A DNA stretch of 64,000 bases from the human T2T-CHM13v2.0 reference genome, Homo sapiens (GCA_009914755.4 CP086569.2:61024001-61088000); one strand, 5' to 3'; shown: positions 1-64,000, counted from the first letter of the stretch. Numbers and translations: made by a program. Notes: generated by a model from the letters alone, not told the origin.

Positions 1-1526
1 GAATGGAATAGAAAGGAATGGAATGAAATGGAATGGAAAGGATTCGAATGGAATGCAATCGAATGGAATGGAATCGAACGGAATGGAATAAAATGGAAGA
101 AAACTGGCAAGAAATGGAATCGAAATGAATGGAGTGTTATGGAACGGACTCAAAAGGAATTGAATGTAATAGAATGGAGTGGAGTGGACTCGAATATAAT
201 GGACTGGAATGGAATGAAATCACATGGAATGGGAACGAATGGAATGGAATGGAAAGGAATGGAATGGAATGGAAAGGAATCGAATGGAAGGGAATGAAAT
301 TGAATCAACAGGAATGGAAGGGAATAGAATAGACGGTAATGGAATGGACTCGAATAGAATGGACACGAATGCTCAAATTGAATGGACTCGAATGGAATGG
401 AAACGAAAGGAATGTCATCGAATGGAATTGAATCGATTGGAATGAAATCGCATAGAATGGAGTGGAATCAAATGGAATTGAATCGAAAGGAAAGGAAGCG
501 AATGGACTGAAATGAAATGGAATGGAATTGAATGGAAAGTAATGCAATGGAATAGAATGGAACGAAATTTCACGGAATGGAATCAAACTGAATGGAATCT
601 AATCAATGGAATCCAATCAAATGGAACGGAGTAGATTGGATTGGATGGGATTGGAATGAAATGTACTGGAAAGGACTCGAATTTCATGAAACGGAATGGA
701 ATGAATTGGAACGGAATGGACTCGAATGGAATGGAATGTCATGGAATGGCATCAAATGGAATGGCATCAAATGGAATGGAATCGAATGCAATGGAATGCT
801 ATGGAATGGAATGGAATGCATTGGAATGGAATGTCCTCTAATGGAATGGATTCGAGTGGAATGGAATCGAATACAATGGAGTCGAATGAAATGGAATTGA
901 AAGGAATGGGATCGAATACAATGGAATATACTGGAATGTAATGTAATGAACTCGAATGTAATTGACTGGAATGGAATGTACATGAATGGAATGTAATCGA
1001 ATGGAAAGTAATCCAATGGAATAGAATCTAATGCAATAAAATCGTCTCAGATAGAGTAGAATGTAATGGAATGGAGTGCAGTGCAATGGAATGGAATGGA
1101 ATGGAATGCAATGGAATGGAATGGAATGGAATGGAATGGAATGGAATGGAATGGAATGGAATGGGATGGAATGGTATGGAATGGATAGTAATGACTGGAG
1201 TGAAATGGACTGGAAAGGAATGGACTCAAATTGAAAGGGCTGGAAAGGAATGGAGTCAAATGGAATGGTCTGGAATGGAATGAACACGAAAGTAATGCAA
1301 TCCAATAGAATGGAATCGAATGGCATGGAATATAATGAAATGGAATCGAAGAGAATGGAAACAAATGGAATGGAATTGAATGGAATGGAATTGAATGGAA
1401 TGGGAACGAATGGAGTGAAATTGTATGCAGTAGAAGGGAATAGAATGGAATGCAAGTGAAAGGAAAGGAATGGATTGGAATGGAATGGAATTCATTGGAA
1501 TGGAAGGGAATGTAGTGTAATGGACA
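1..1526 (+). repeat. Partial DYZ1 HOR copy, cut by the window start and ending at the HaeIII-site anchor.
   Basis: Matches the 3' portion of the following full HOR copies. Confidence 0.8.
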
Positions 1527-4500
1527 GGCCTGGAATAAAGTGGAATGCTACGGTCTCGAATGGAATAAAAATGTATGGAATGGAATGCAATGAAACGGAA
1601 TCGAATGTCATAGAATGTAATGGAATGCAAAAAAATGGAATCCAAAATCATTGACTGGAAAGGCTGGGTGTCGAAAGGAATTGACTCCAATGGAATGGAA
1701 TCGAATGGAATGGAAGTGAATAGAATCGAACTAAATCGAATGGAATGGAATTGATAGGAACGGAATGGAAAGGAATGCAATGATTTGGCACGGAATGGAA
1801 TCGAATGGCATCGAATGGAATGGAATGGAATGCAATTGAATGGAACGTATTAGAATGTAATGAACTTTAATGGAATGTACTCGAATGGATTCGACTGGAA
1901 TGGAATGTTCTGGAAGTGAATGGACTCCAATGGAATGGATACAAAAGGAATGGAATCGTACGGAATGGAATCTAATGGAATGGAATTAAATGGAAATGAA
2001 TCAAATTGAATAGCATGGAATTGAATTGAATGGAATCGAATGCAATGGAATCTAATGAAACGGAAAGGAAAGGAATGGAATGGAATGGAATGGGCTGGAA
2101 TGGAAAGGAATCGAAACGAATGGAATGGAATCGAACTGACGAGACTGGAATGGAATGCACTGGAATGGAAGGGAGTGTAATGGAAGGTTCTCGAAAAAAA
2201 TGGAATCGAATGGAATGGAATTGAATGGAACGGAATAGAGTCGAATGGAATTGAATGGAATGGAATTGACTAGAGTGAAATGGAATCGAACCACAAGGAA
2301 TGGACAGGAATAGAATGGTCTCGAATTGAATGGAATCGTATGGAATGGCATCAAACGGAATGGAATGGACAGCCACGGAATGGAATGCACTCGAAGGCAA
2401 TGGAGTCGAAACTAAAGGACTGGAATAGAATGGATTCGACTGGTACGGACTCCAATGGAATGGAATCGAATGGAAGGGAATCGAACGGAATGGACTCGAA
2501 GGGAAAAGACTGCAATGGAAAGGTCTCGAATGGAATGGAAATTAATGGAATGGAATGGAATTGAATGAAATGGAGTCAAAAGGAATGGAATCGAATGGCA
2601 AGAAATCGAATGTAATGGAATCGCAAGGAATTGATGTGAACGGAACGGAATGGAATGGAATCCAAAGGAATGGAATAGAATGGAATGGAATCGAATGGAA
2701 AGGACTCGAATGGAAATCACTCGAATAGAATGCAATTTAATAAAATAGGATCAAATGTAATGGAATGGAATGGAAAGGAATCGAAACGAAAGGAATGGAG
2801 ACAGATGGAATGGAATAGAACAGAGAGCAATGGTATAGAATGGAATGGAATCATCTGGAATGGAATTGAATGGAATGGAATAATATGAAATGGAATGGAA
2901 TGGAATGGAATGGAATGCCCTTGAATTAAATGGACTGGAATGGAATGGACTCGAACAGAGTGGAATGGAAAGTGTTGAGATAGAATGGAATGGACTCGTT
3001 TGGAATGGTCTAGTATGCAATGCAATCGACTGGCAGGGAATCAAAAGGAATGTAATGGAATGGATTGGACTGGAATGCAATGGACTCGAATAGATTGGAA
3101 ACGGAATGCAAAGGAATGGAATGGAATAGTATGGAATGGAATGGAAAGGAATGGAGTGGAATAGACTAGAGTGGAATGGAATGGACTGGAAAGCAATAGA
3201 CTGGAATGGAACTTTCTTGAATGGACTGGAATCAAACGGAATGGAATGCAATGCAATCAAATGGCATGGAATAAAATAGAATGAAAGAGAATCAAATGGA
3301 ATTGAATCGAATGGAATCGAATGGATTGGAAAGGAATAGAATGGAATGGAATGGAATTGACTCAAATGGAATGGACTAGAATGGAATGGATTCGAATGGA
3401 AGGCAAAGGAATGGAATCTATTGGAATGGACTGTAATGGAATGGAATGGAAGGGATTGGAATGGACTCGAATGGAATGGACTGCAATAGAAAGGATTCGA
3501 ATGGAATGAAAAAGAATTGAATGGAATAGAACAGAATGGAATCAAATCGAATGAAATGGAATGGAATAGAAAGGAATGGAATGAAATGGAATGGAAAGGA
3601 TTCGAATGGAATGCAATCGAATGGAATGGAATCGAACGGAATGGAATAAAATGGAAGAAAACTGGCAAGAAATGGAATCGAAATGAATGGAGTGTTATGG
3701 AACGGACTCAAAAGGAATTGAATGTAATAGAATGGAGTGGAGTGGACTCGAATATAATGGACTGGAATGGAATGAAATCACATGGAATGGGAACGAATGG
3801 AATGGAATGGAAAGGAATGGAATCAAATGGAAAGGAATCGAATGGAAGGGAATGAAATTGAATCAACAGGAATGGAAGGGAATAGAATAGACGGTAATGG
3901 AATGGACTCGAATAGAATGGACACGAATGCTCAAATTGAATGGACTCGAATGGAATGGAAACGAAAGGAATGTCATCGAATGGAATTGAATCGATTGGAA
4001 TGAAATCGCATAGAATGGAGTGGAATCAAATGGAATTGAATCGAAAGGAAAGGAAGCAAATGGACTGAAATGAAATGGAATGGAATTGAATGGAAAGCTA
4101 TGTAATGGAATAGAATGGAACGAAATTTCACGGAATGGAATCAAACTGAATGGAATCAAATCAATGGAATCAAATCAAATGGAATGGAAAGGAATTGAAT
4201 GGAGTAGATTGGATTGGATGGGATTGGAATGAAATGTACTGGAAAGGACTCGAATTTCATGAAACGGAATGGAATGAATTGGAACGGAACGGAGTCGAAT
4301 GGAATGGAATGTCATGGAATGGCATCAAATGGAATGGCATGAAATGGAATGGAATCGAATGCAATGGAATGCTATGGAATGGAATGGAATGCATTGGAAT
4401 GGAATGTCCTCTAATGGAATGGATTCGAGTGGAATGGAATCGAATATAATGGAGTCGAATGAAATGGAATTGAAAAGAATGGGATCGAATACAATGGAAT

Positions 4501-62094: not shown

Positions 62095-64000
62095 ATATTT
62101 TTTAAATGAAAAAAAATTTCAAAGGTACTCTGCTTGGTACAATAATCAAATGTATAAACTGAGGAATAAAACATAACCATGAAACATACTTATAACTGCA
62201 TATGGAAAATACAGAGGATAATTTTTTAAATAACATATTTTGAAAGCCTTAACTAGTAATTTGAAGAGTTGGCATTTGAAAGGCCAGTATGAATATACCT
62301 TCAAAGCAGCAACACAGGTTCCCCATGAGGAAAAGCAAACTCAGGGAAAATAAAACCACAAAGGTTCAATCTCTTCTGACCTTTGAAAGACACAGCACAG
62401 ACAGTGGTCCTTAGGACGAAGAGCAGGAGACCCCTAATTCCGTCACCATGGCGATAGGGCATAAACATTGCTGGGTGAGGGCACAATCCACATTGTGAGG
62501 TCCAACTGCTGCCAGGAAGACAGGAGTGCTTTTACATAGACCGAAAGGTCATTGAAGGCTCAGAGTTTTGTTTCAAGAACTGAATCCCAAGCCCACACGT
62601 TATTAGGCTGCGCTTCTTAAAACAGGTTATGAGATGGGAAAAAGGGCACCCACAAACATACGTATACATTATGTACATAATAATATACAGTATCATATAT
62701 ATAATATATATAACCTATGTATAATATTGTTTTACATCCTGCATCTTATGTTATATATATTGTATAAAATATAATAATTGATAATATATAAGTTTTATAT
62801 TTATACAATATGACATATAGTATATATTATAATTTATGACATATATAATATATGTTATATATCATATATAGAATATATTATACGGTTAATATACGTATTA
62901 AATATAAATTATACATTATATATATTATATATAATATATCTGTTATATATAATACCCATTATGCATAACATATATATTATGTCTATGTTATATATAGCAT
63001 AAAACAACATATAATAATATATAATTGTATATATAAAATGCGACATATAATATATATTATATTTTATGACATATGTAATATATATTATATATTATATATA
63101 ATACGTTGTATGTATAATACCTATATTAAATATATATTATATGACTATGTTATTAATTACATGTCACATATGTTATATATTATATATTTTACATAGAATA
63201 TACCGGTTACATACAATATATACTATGTTACCTATAATGTATAATTTATTACATGTAATATAAAGAATGCAATATATCATGTATAATTTATAATACACAA
63301 TATGTGGAATATGATATATATAACATATAATATATGATATATGATATACAGTATATGATATATAACATACAACATATGATACCTAATACATATGGCATAC
63401 AATATATATTTTATGATATGTATTCTATATGTTTTATATTCTGTTATATATAACTATTTGAAATTATATATAACTGTATAATATTTTATGTAAATATGTA
63501 ATATAATATATATAACTATATAATATATTATATATAACTATATATTATGTTATATATACTTTTATAACATAATTTACATAAAATATCATAATATAATATA
63601 TATTATATTATTTCATATTACATAATATATATTACATATCACCCAATATAAGTAACATGCATAATATTATAATATAGATTATATATATTATGTTATATAT
63701 ACTTTTATAACATAATTTACATAAAATATCATAGTATAAAATATATTATATTATTTCATATTACATAATATATATTACATATCACCCAATATAAGTAACA
63801 TACATAATATTATACTATAGATTATATTATGTTATATTAAATATCATATATATCATGTATCATATATTCTATAATATATATTATACATTATATAATATGT
63901 ATGCTGTCTATTATGTGATATATATAACTATATATATAATTATATTATTATACATATAACTAGATAAAGATGTAATTCTACATATTTTCATTTATAATAT
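61797..64000. repeat. DYZ2 unit 14, partial because it is cut by the window end. It carries the same 143-bp duplication (about 63541-63830) and the same SNVs as unit 9.
   Basis: It starts at the Alu T-run at 61797. It shares with unit 9 the variants 'cctctctcagcc', 'ccaccatacctagc', 'gtgatacccttgcc', 'taacatgcat' and 'catagtataaaat'. Confidence 0.85.

What the first reader, a model, noticed from the sequence alone, without database searches (positions are those of the whole stretch)
1..64000. The window spans a DYZ1 (HSat3) to DYZ2 (HSat1B) block boundary typical of human Yq12 heterochromatin.
Two unrelated satellites sit side by side. One is a GGAAT-pentamer HOR of about 3.55 kb. The other is a roughly 2.42-kb unit made of an Alu plus AT-rich DNA. 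In humans this combination is the defining architecture of Yq12, which consists of alternating DYZ1 and DYZ2 blocks. GGCC spacing read directly from the sequence gives one site per 3.55-kb DYZ1 HOR and a roughly 2.16-kb GGCC-free AT-rich stretch per DYZ2 unit. These match the classical male-specific HaeIII 3.4/3.56-kb and 2.1-kb bands. There are no genes here, so the value lies in the satellite architecture and the junction rather than in any coding system.
Basis: partly seen in the sequence, partly recalled or inferred. Interest (0 to 1): 0.5.

Follow-up and report, generated by a model that had tools for sequence, protein, structure and literature searches.

The report
Human Yq12 DYZ1–DYZ2 satellite boundary

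Summary
Observation confirmed and interpretation supported. The architecture is already known.

- **DYZ1 side (1-29,483):** A GGAAT-derived satellite in a 3,549-3,574-bp higher-order repeat. There are 7 full and 2 partial copies, 98.6-99.2% identical to each other.
- **Match to published DYZ1:** All eight published DYZ1 primers hit once per copy. All ten published amplicon sizes are reproduced, exactly or within pentamer multiples. The local consensus is 99.8% identical to independent DYZ1 contigs, which are human contaminants in bacterial assemblies.
- **DYZ2 side (29,484-64,000):** 13 full units plus a rearranged first unit and a last unit cut by the window end. The consensus is exactly 2,420 bp. 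Each unit holds an antisense, 5'-truncated Alu 82% identical to AluY, then a roughly 567-bp GC-richer part ending at ACATACG, then a roughly 1.55-kb AT-rich part.
- **Composition:** GC is 38.7% on the DYZ1 side and 24.1% on the DYZ2 side. CpG density is 1/35 and 1/145 bp. These equal the values published for Yq12.
- **HaeIII digest:** In silico it gives fragments of 3.55 kb and about 2.15 kb.
- **Junction:** The break is sharp and shares ATC. A rearranged DYZ2 unit with a 760-bp internal deletion follows it.
- **Limit:** Chromosome placement could not be tested by alignment, because no human assembly was available. It rests on the Y-specificity of DYZ1 reported in the literature.

No genes were found.

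The parts
1..29483 (+). DYZ1 (HSat3A6) array, GGAAT strand on +. It holds 2 partial and 7 full higher-order repeats. The window start cuts it on the left.
   Evidence: the HOR is 3549-3574 bp and each copy is 99.0-99.5% identical to the local consensus; the published DYZ1 primers and amplicon sizes are reproduced; 99.8% identity to independent DYZ1 contigs.
1527..5080 (+). One representative full DYZ1 HOR (3554 bp), cut at the HaeIII (GGCC) site. The other copies start at 5081, 8655, 12204, 15763, 19312 and 22866. The last, partial copy spans 26415-29483.
1391..1544 (+). 154-bp interval between the classical DYZ1 sexing primers (Y1.2 forward, Y1.1 reverse), spanning the HaeIII site. It recurs once per HOR, 8 times in all.
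   Evidence: zero mismatches and a 154-bp product in all 8 copies. The primer sequences are recalled from memory (Kogan 1987) and were not found in the held library.
29481..29492 (+). DYZ1/DYZ2 junction: ...GGAATAGA[ATC]ATATATG... The trinucleotide ATC is shared by both satellites at the break. DYZ1 stops at HOR position about 3074, counted from the GGCC site. DYZ2 enters at unit position about 888-904, which is the start of its AT-rich part.
29484..30240 (+). Junction-proximal, rearranged DYZ2 unit (757 bp). Unit positions about 890-988 are joined to about 1749-2420 by a 760-bp internal deletion at a TTATATATA microhomology. It is 97.2% identical to the consensus.
30241..64000 (+). DYZ2 (HSat1B) array of 13 full units and 1 partial unit, with the Alu antisense on +. 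Units start at 30241, 32663, 35084, 37503, 39923, 42339, 44760, 47156, 49571, 52131, 54551, 56969, 59387 and 61803. The window end cuts it on the right.
   Evidence: the consensus is 2420 bp and units are 98.4-99.05% identical to it. GC 24.1%, CpG 1 per 145 bp, and ACATACG in 13 of 14 units.
30241..30526 (-). Alu-derived segment of the first full DYZ2 unit (unit positions 1-286). It is 5'-truncated at Alu position 12, 82% identical to AluY, and carries a 15-bp internal insertion. It recurs in every unit.
   Evidence: using an AluY consensus recalled from memory. This agrees with the published 290 +/- 2 bp and about 20% divergence.
30527..31100 (+). GC-richer segment of the first full DYZ2 unit, labelled 'HSATI' by RepeatMasker in the literature. 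It is about 567 bp and ends at the ACATACG motif (31094-31100).
   Evidence: The published length is 566 +/- 16 bp.
31101..32662 (+). AT-rich segment of the first full DYZ2 unit, with GC 7-19% in most 100-bp windows.
51288..51612 (+). 143-bp tandem duplication inside the AT-rich part of unit 9, which makes that unit 2560 bp. The same variant occurs at 63520-63844 in unit 14.
49607..51768 (+). Left copy of a recent tandem duplication of 12,232 bp (5 units). The right copy spans 61839-64000 and is cut by the window end. There is 1 mismatch in about 2160 bp.

Best explanation
The window is human Y-chromosome long-arm heterochromatin (Yq12). It holds the end of a DYZ1 (HSat3A6, about 3.55-kb HOR of GGAAT-derived pentamers) array joined directly to the start of a DYZ2 (HSat1B, 2.42-kb Alu + GC-richer + AT-rich composite) array.

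It encodes nothing. It is constitutive heterochromatin that evolves by unequal exchange and tandem duplication within arrays.

Shown here:
- the identity of both satellites;
- a sharp junction with 3 bp of microhomology;
- a junction-proximal DYZ2 unit with a 760-bp internal deletion;
- a recent 12.2-kb (5-unit) tandem duplication.

Inferred:
- the junction arose once by a non-homologous or microhomology-mediated join and was then carried along by the large block duplications described for Yq12;
- the units are kept alike by unequal sister-chromatid exchange and gene conversion;
- the location is the Y chromosome rather than an acrocentric short arm.
For: DYZ1:
- The HOR is 3549-3574 bp, copies are 98.6-99.2% identical pairwise, and indels come in multiples of 5.
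- Eight DYZ1 primers from PMC3402420 Table S3 each hit once per HOR with 0-2 mismatches.
- Their ten published amplicon sizes (Table S7) are reproduced. The 266, 242, 275 and 329 bp products are exact in every copy, 773 bp is exact in 7 of 8, and the long ones are within +/-20 bp in steps of 5.
- The classical 154-bp sexing amplicon is present 8 times with no mismatches.
- The consensus is 99.78-99.85% identical over 2.6-3.2 kb to collapsed DYZ1 contigs that contaminate bacterial assemblies.

DYZ2:
- The consensus is exactly 2420 bp, equal to the published consensus and median.
- The Alu occupies unit positions 1-286, is 5'-truncated and is 82% identical to AluY. Published values are 290 +/- 2 bp and about 20% divergence.
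- ACATACG sits at unit position 854 in 13 of 14 units. The published text places this heptamer at the HSATI/AT-rich boundary, with HSATI 566 +/- 16 bp.

Composition: GC is 38.7% and 24.1%, and CpG is 1/35 and 1/145 bp. Published values are 38%/24% and 1/35 and 1/150.

Y against other copies of HSat1B:
- All 14 window units cluster with a tight class of 10 metagenome contigs that are 98.9-99.5% identical to the window consensus.
- They are separated by 14 near-fixed differences in 870 bp from four more divergent clusters at 94.6-97.9%.
- This fits the published picture of one homogenised Y cluster plus chromosome-specific acrocentric variants.

The literature states that DYZ1 is a Y-specific HSat3 subfamily, that it is used as a Y-specific motif for contig assignment, and that Yq12 is made of alternating DYZ1 and DYZ2 arrays.
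Against: - No human genome assembly was available, so the window was never mapped. The Y assignment rests on sequence identity to DYZ1 and on the literature's statement that DYZ1 is Y-specific.
- The clusters of HSat1B contigs carry no chromosome labels, so calling the tight class 'Y' is an inference.
- The junction 33-mer and a 26-mer were not found in any public collection searched. The junction is therefore not independently corroborated. This is expected, because there are at most a few dozen junctions per Y against thousands of units.
- Only 2 of 13 full DYZ2 units are exactly 2420 bp, whereas the literature reports 93.7%. This fits an array edge, or a difference in how units are delimited, but it was not resolved.
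Confidence: 0.93

Rival explanations
1. The window comes from an acrocentric short arm (13, 14, 15, 21 or 22) or another autosomal site where HSat3 and HSat1B also occur, not from the Y.
For: HSat1B and HSat3 both exist on acrocentric short arms, and HSat1B also on chr10. Hallast et al. call DYZ2 'Y-unspecific'. No mapping to a human assembly could be done here.
Against: - The HSat3 side is the 3.55-kb DYZ1 HOR itself. It is collinear with the cloned DYZ1 and 99.8% identical to independent DYZ1 copies.
- The literature describes this subfamily as Y-specific and uses it to assign contigs to the Y.
- The HSat1B units fall in the homogeneous class. They are 5% away from the four divergent clusters that plausibly represent the non-Y copies.
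- Both arrays are at least 29 kb and at least 34 kb of highly homogeneous units.
Confidence: 0.03
2. The junction is an assembly artefact, a false join of DYZ1 and DYZ2 reads or contigs, although both satellites are real.
For: Yq12 is the hardest region of the Y to assemble. The junction k-mers were not found elsewhere. Chimeric contigs that contain DYZ2 do exist in public data (L028).
Against: - DYZ1/DYZ2 junctions are expected every few hundred kb in Yq12.
- The junction has the marks of a real, old rearrangement. The flanking DYZ2 unit is rearranged and more diverged (97.2%), and divergence eases over the next units from 98.55 to 98.72, 98.84 and 99.05%.
- That gradient matches the published pattern of more diverged units at array edges.
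- There is no low-quality sequence, N or k-mer-length overlap at the break.
Confidence: 0.03
3. The window comes from a non-human great ape that has related pentameric and HSat1-like satellites.
For: HSat3-type and HSat1-type satellites occur in other apes. The origin of the window is not given.
Against: - Ten human-designed DYZ1 primers match with 0-2 mismatches in every copy.
- The HOR is 99.8% identical to contaminant contigs in bacterial isolate assemblies, whose source is almost certainly human laboratory DNA.
- The DYZ2 consensus length, sub-part lengths, GC and CpG equal the human values.
- Satellite sequences turn over too fast between apes for such identity.
Confidence: 0.01

Closest known systems
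DYZ1 / HSat3A6 (human Y-specific 3.5-3.6-kb HSat3 nested repeat; cloned 3.4/3.56-kb HaeIII fragment)
   Same: - It is GGAAT/CATTC-derived, with a HOR of 3549-3574 bp against a published mean of 3,543 bp.
- It has one HaeIII site per unit.
- GC is 38.7% and CpG is 1 per 35 bp.
- All published primer sites occur in the published order and spacing.
- It is 99.8% identical to independent copies.
   Different: Nothing of substance differs. Individual copies differ from the cloned reference by pentamer-multiple indels: the long amplicons are 3363-3388 bp against 3378 bp. Primer DYZ1-4 has 2 mismatches in 7 of 8 copies. One copy has an extra GGCC at 11,914.
DYZ2 / HSat1B (about 2.4-kb composite satellite: AT-rich repeat + 5'-truncated Alu + 'HSATI')
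   Same: - The consensus is 2420 bp.
- The Alu part is 286 bp at about 18-20% divergence.
- A roughly 567-bp GC-richer part ends at ACATACG.
- The AT-rich part is more than 85% AT.
- GC is 24.1% and CpG is 1 per 145 bp.
- The Alu is antisense on the given strand. Published assemblies report 96.2% of Yq12 repeat units in the antisense orientation. Whether the window's + strand matches that reference orientation was not tested.
   Different: - Unit lengths here scatter by a few bp, from 2396 to 2422, and only 2 of 13 are exactly 2420 bp.
- Two units carry a 143-bp tandem duplication.
- The first unit at the junction has a 760-bp deletion.
- All of this fits the edge of an array.
Acrocentric-arm HSat1B and HSat3 arrays
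   Same: They belong to the same satellite families (HSat1B composite unit, GGAAT-derived HSat3) and can lie near each other.
   Different: According to the literature the acrocentric HSat3 is not the 3.55-kb DYZ1 HOR. The window's HSat1B units are about 5% diverged, with 14 near-fixed differences in 870 bp, from the non-homogeneous HSat1B clusters seen in metagenome contigs.

Membership tests
DYZ1 (HSat3A6) | Derived from the pentamer GGAAT/CATTC | tested here: met
   TRF reports periods of 10 and 15 across 1-29,483. There are 1957 exact GGAAT on + and no ATTCC. Exact GGAAT covers 33% of the array.
DYZ1 (HSat3A6) | Nested higher-order repeat of about 3.5-3.6 kb with highly similar copies | tested here: met
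   Seven full copies of 3549-3574 bp are 98.6-99.2% identical pairwise and 99.3-99.5% identical to the consensus. The published values are about 3.6 kb and a mean of 3,543 bp.
DYZ1 (HSat3A6) | One HaeIII site per unit, giving the 3.4/3.56-kb fragment | tested here: met
   The in-silico digest gives fragments of 3549, 3549, 3554, 3554, 3559 and 3574 bp. One unit is split into 3259 + 290 bp by an extra site. The cloned DYZ1 is described as an approximately 3.4-kb HaeIII digest in PMC3402420.
DYZ1 (HSat3A6) | Collinearity with the cloned DYZ1 sequence (published primer sites and amplicon sizes) | tested here: met
   Eight of eight primers hit once per HOR. All ten amplicons are reproduced, five of them exactly and five within +/-20 bp in pentamer steps. 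The 154-bp sexing amplicon is present 8 times.
DYZ1 (HSat3A6) | Male-specific, located on Yq12 | not testable with these tools
   No human assembly or sex-stratified read set is available. Support is indirect: 99.8% identity to DYZ1 contaminant contigs, and the literature's statement that this subfamily is Y-specific.
DYZ2 (HSat1B) | Tandem unit of about 2.4 kb (published consensus and median 2,420 bp) | tested here: met
   The local consensus is 2420 bp. There are 13 full units of 2396-2560 bp, 97.1-98.7% identical pairwise.
DYZ2 (HSat1B) | Tripartite unit: 5'-truncated Alu about 20% diverged, a GC-richer 'HSATI' part of about 566 bp, and an AT-rich part more than 85% AT | tested here: met
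   The Alu occupies unit positions 1-286, starts at Alu position 12 and is 82% identical to AluY (consensus recalled from memory). Positions 287-853 have GC 27-53%. Positions 900-2300 have GC 7-19%.
DYZ2 (HSat1B) | ACATACG heptamer at the HSATI/AT-rich boundary | tested here: met
   It occurs once per unit at unit position 854 in 13 of 14 units and is absent from unit 7. The motif is described in Hallast et al..
DYZ2 (HSat1B) | GC about 24% and CpG about 1 per 150 bp, against 38% and 1 per 35 bp for DYZ1 | tested here: met
   The window gives 24.1% and 1/145 on the DYZ2 side, and 38.7% and 1/35 on the DYZ1 side.
DYZ2 (HSat1B) | Y-type (homogenised) rather than acrocentric variant | tested here: inconclusive
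   All 14 units cluster with a tight class of public contigs and are separated from four divergent clusters. The clusters carry no chromosome labels.
Yq12 heterochromatin architecture | DYZ1 and DYZ2 arrays directly abutting and alternating, free of other transposable elements | tested here: met
   One direct junction lies at 29,483/29,484 with no filler. Nothing interrupts either array apart from the unit's own Alu. Alternation beyond one junction cannot be seen in 64 kb.
Yq12 heterochromatin architecture | Array sizes of tens of kb to Mb (DYZ1 at least 50-80 kb, DYZ2 at least 11-20 kb) | not testable with these tools
   Both arrays run off the window, at 29.5 kb or more and 34.5 kb or more. 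This fits the published ranges.

The most novel reading that the evidence does not exclude
The exact seam seen here may be the common seam of many or all DYZ1-to-DYZ2 transitions in Yq12. The seam consists of DYZ1 broken at HOR position about 3074, an ATC microhomology, DYZ2 entering at unit position about 890, and a 760-bp deleted first unit. If it is shared, the alternating blocks descend from one ancestral DYZ1-DYZ2 composite, and the seam variants could serve as markers to reconstruct the order of block duplications across Y haplogroups. Published work describes iterative multi-block duplications, but the texts I could read do not give a base-level catalogue of these seams.
Probability: 0.35. 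Interest if true: 0.3.

Novelty: already known. Interest (0 to 1): 0.1.

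Why it matters
It matters little beyond correct annotation. The DYZ1/DYZ2 alternation of Yq12 has been fully described at base level in T2T-Y and in dozens of further Y assemblies.

The window is a clean textbook example. Three details illustrate how such arrays change: the microhomology at the seam, the rearranged first DYZ2 unit, and a fresh 12.2-kb five-unit duplication.

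It is also a reminder that these satellites contaminate bacterial and metagenome assemblies.

Tried and rejected
- **Ungapped autocorrelation of the DYZ1 side.** It did not reveal the HOR, because pentamer-multiple indels shift the register. Cutting at GGCC and aligning did.
- **A five-unit higher-order structure for the whole DYZ2 array.** I rejected this. Mean identity does not rise at lag 5. Only units 9 and 14 are near-identical, which points to a local recent duplication.
- **Junction k-mers in public collections.** Scans of metagenome, genome and viral contigs found nothing.
- **Rfam.** There was no hit, not even SRP/7SL for the Alu part.
- **Coding potential.** The long ORFs are minus-strand pentamer artefacts. 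Their only Pfam matches are sub-threshold Extensin and Pentapeptide hits.
- **Literature.** Searches for the classical Y1.1/Y1.2 primer strings and for the '2.1 kb HaeIII' to DYZ2 link found nothing in the held library. Those two points rest on my own knowledge.
- **Long-read metagenome contigs BNJT/BNJU (L001, L011 and others).** I left them out of the clustering because their identities of 77-98% look like read noise.

Full report
**What is in the window**

The composition changes abruptly near 29.5 kb. Positions 1-29,000 have GC of about 0.38 with a strong GC skew of about +0.57. Beyond that point GC swings between 0.13 and 0.40 with no skew. Tandem Repeats Finder calls one array with periods 10 and 15 (GAATG GAATG...) over 1-29,483, and recurring AT-rich sub-repeats beyond it. 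The break lies at 29,483/29,484...CCAATGGAATAGAATC|ATATATGATATATAA....

**The pentamer array (1-29,483)**

GGCC occurs at 1527, 5081, 8655, 12204, 15763, 19312, 22866 and 26415, with one extra site at 11914. Units cut at these sites are 3549-3574 bp. They align at 98.6-99.2% pairwise identity, and every indel is a multiple of five. Each is 99.0-99.5% identical to a 3554-bp local consensus, including the last partial copy that runs into the junction.

**Is it DYZ1?**

PMC3402420 lists eight DYZ1 primers (Table S3) and ten amplicon sizes (Table S7) designed on the cloned HaeIII fragment of about 3.4 kb.

- All eight primers hit once per repeat in the expected orientation with 0-2 mismatches.
- The in-silico products are 266, 242, 275 and 329 bp in every copy, exactly as published.
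- The 773-bp product is exact in 7 of 8 copies.
- The long products are close to the published sizes, and every difference is a multiple of five:

| Published (bp) | Observed (bp) |
|---|---|
| 3378 | 3363-3388 |
| 1564 | 1544-1584 |
| 2095 | 2075-2100 |
| 2056 | 2046-2061 |
| 1612 | 1612-1617 |

- The classical sexing primers also match without mismatch in all eight copies and give a 154-bp product across the HaeIII site. I recalled these from memory (Kogan 1987) and did not find them in the held library.
- A scan of bacterial and archaeal genome contigs for one of these primers returned six contigs. Examples are Actinomadura cremea BMRF01000076.1 (3637 bp) and a Polyangiaceae MAG contig (3604 bp). 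These are evidently collapsed human DYZ1 contaminants, of the kind Rhie et al. describe.
- The window's consensus is 99.78-99.85% identical to them over 2.6-3.2 kb.
- GC is 38.7% and CpG density is 1 per 35 bp, equal to the published 38% and 1/35.

**The composite array (29,484-64,000)**

A unit taken at 30,241 recurs 13 times in full and once in part, at 96-99% identity. Units are 2396-2560 bp long and 97.1-98.7% identical pairwise. Their consensus is exactly 2420 bp, which is the published DYZ2 consensus and median length.

The unit is built as follows on the + strand:

- Positions 1-286 are an antisense Alu. It starts at Alu position 12, is 82% identical to AluY (consensus recalled from memory), and carries a 15-bp insertion. 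The published values are 290 +/- 2 bp and about 20% divergence.
- Positions 287-853 are GC-richer at 27-53% and end at ACATACG, which is present in 13 of 14 units. The published 'HSATI' part is 566 +/- 16 bp, and the same heptamer is described at its boundary.
- The remaining roughly 1.55 kb has GC of 7-19% in most 100-bp windows.

GC is 24.1% and CpG density is 1 per 145 bp, against the published 24% and 1/150. This is DYZ2/HSat1B.

**HaeIII digest**

The in-silico digest gives six DYZ1 fragments of 3549-3574 bp, one DYZ1 unit split into 3259 + 290 bp, and a 4031-bp fragment that spans the junction. From DYZ2 it gives fragments of 2122-2187 bp, mostly 2141-2148 bp, plus small Alu pieces of 204, 45 and 25 bp.

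The stretch of about 2.15 kb is not purely AT-rich, however: it includes about 390 bp of the GC-richer part and 205 bp of Alu. The claim that the classical 2.1-kb male band is DYZ2 rests on my own knowledge (Cooke 1976). I could not find it in the held library.

**The junction**

DYZ1 is collinear with its consensus up to HOR position about 3074, counted from the GGCC site, with no decay towards the break. The trinucleotide ATC is shared by both satellites at the break.

DYZ2 then enters at unit position about 888-904, the start of its AT-rich part. It runs to about position 988 at 95% identity. It then jumps to about position 1749 across a TTATATATA microhomology, which is a 760-bp internal deletion, and continues to the end of the unit.

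This first unit is 97.2% identical to the consensus. The next four are 98.55, 98.72, 98.84 and 99.05%, the edge-of-array gradient reported by Hallast et al.. I infer a single old non-homologous or microhomology-mediated join that later block duplications carried along. This inference is not shown.

**Y or acrocentric?**

HSat1B and HSat3 also occur on acrocentric short arms, and no human assembly could be searched here. Three lines of evidence favour the Y.

- The HSat3 side is the DYZ1 HOR itself. Rhie et al. call it a Y-specific subfamily, and Hallast et al. use it as a Y-specific motif for assigning contigs, while they treat DYZ2 as Y-unspecific.
- A DYZ2 28-mer found 52 metagenome contigs. 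In the 870-bp Alu + GC-richer part, ten short-read contigs are 98.9-99.5% identical to the window consensus and cluster with all 14 window units. Twenty-four other copies fall into four clusters at 94.6-97.9%, separated by 14 near-fixed differences. This fits one homogenised Y cluster plus chromosome-specific non-Y variants, but the clusters carry no labels.
- Direct abutment of long, homogeneous DYZ1 and DYZ2 arrays is the stated make-up of Yq12.

**No genes**

Rfam gave no hit at gathering score. All ORFs of at least 150 aa lie on the minus strand of the pentamer array, where ATTCC repeats contain no stop codon. Three of them gave only sub-threshold low-complexity Pfam matches.

**How it works**

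This is non-coding constitutive heterochromatin. The window shows the processes that shape it:

- pentamer-multiple slippage in DYZ1;
- small indels and a 143-bp tandem duplication in the AT-rich part of DYZ2;
- a 760-bp deletion at a microhomology;
- a recent 12,232-bp five-unit tandem duplication. From 49,607 to the limit set by the window end there is one mismatch in about 2160 bp against the copy at +12,232, whereas identity just to the left is the usual 97-98% or so.

These observations fit the unequal-exchange and iterative-duplication model published for Yq12.

**Verdict**

The feature is already known and fully described, so interest is low. The main limit is that the chromosome assignment was inferred from sequence identity and the literature rather than obtained by mapping.

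Noticed in passing
window 49607-51768 and 61839-64000: A recent tandem duplication of 12,232 bp (five DYZ2 units). Unit 14 is 99.77% identical to unit 9 against 97.4-98.6% to all other units. Past the left breakpoint at about 49,606 there is only one mismatch. Both copies carry the same 143-bp internal duplication (51288-51612 and 63520-63844).
   Followed up: yes
L053-L058 (for example BMRF01000076.1 Actinomadura cremea JCM 3308, NZ_JBFAJD010000109.1 Streptomyces sp. NPDC050549, CAYVXY010000078.1 Polyangiaceae MAG): Six contigs filed as bacterial genome sequence are human DYZ1, 96.7-100% identical to the window's HOR consensus depending on the aligned piece (98.4-99.85% over pieces of at least 1 kb). 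This is contamination from male human DNA, of the kind Rhie et al. reported for HSat3 and HSat1B.
   Followed up: partly
L001-L052 (metagenome contigs): HSat1B copies in public metagenome assemblies split into one tight class, which matches the window, and four more divergent clusters at 94.6-97.9% in the Alu + GC-richer part. The divergent clusters are plausibly the acrocentric or chr10 variants. Some contigs (L026, L027, L032, L039) join a 99% part to a 91% part.
   Followed up: partly
L028 1-1389 against 1390-6438 (OGJJ01000944.1, 23.9 kb): A metagenome contig with 1.39 kb of Y-type DYZ2 joined to unrelated sequence of 29-45% GC. It is probably an assembly chimera.
   Followed up: no
window 30241-30860 and 11914: HaeIII site polymorphism. 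The first full DYZ2 unit has lost one Alu GGCC (AGGCCTGAGCCA changed to AGGTCTGAACCA) and carries sites at 30720 and 30852 that other units lack. DYZ1 copy 3 has an extra GGCC at 11914.
   Followed up: partly
window 44760-47155: DYZ2 unit 7 is the shortest (2396 bp) and the most diverged (98.37% to the consensus). It is the only unit that lacks the ACATACG boundary motif.
   Followed up: no
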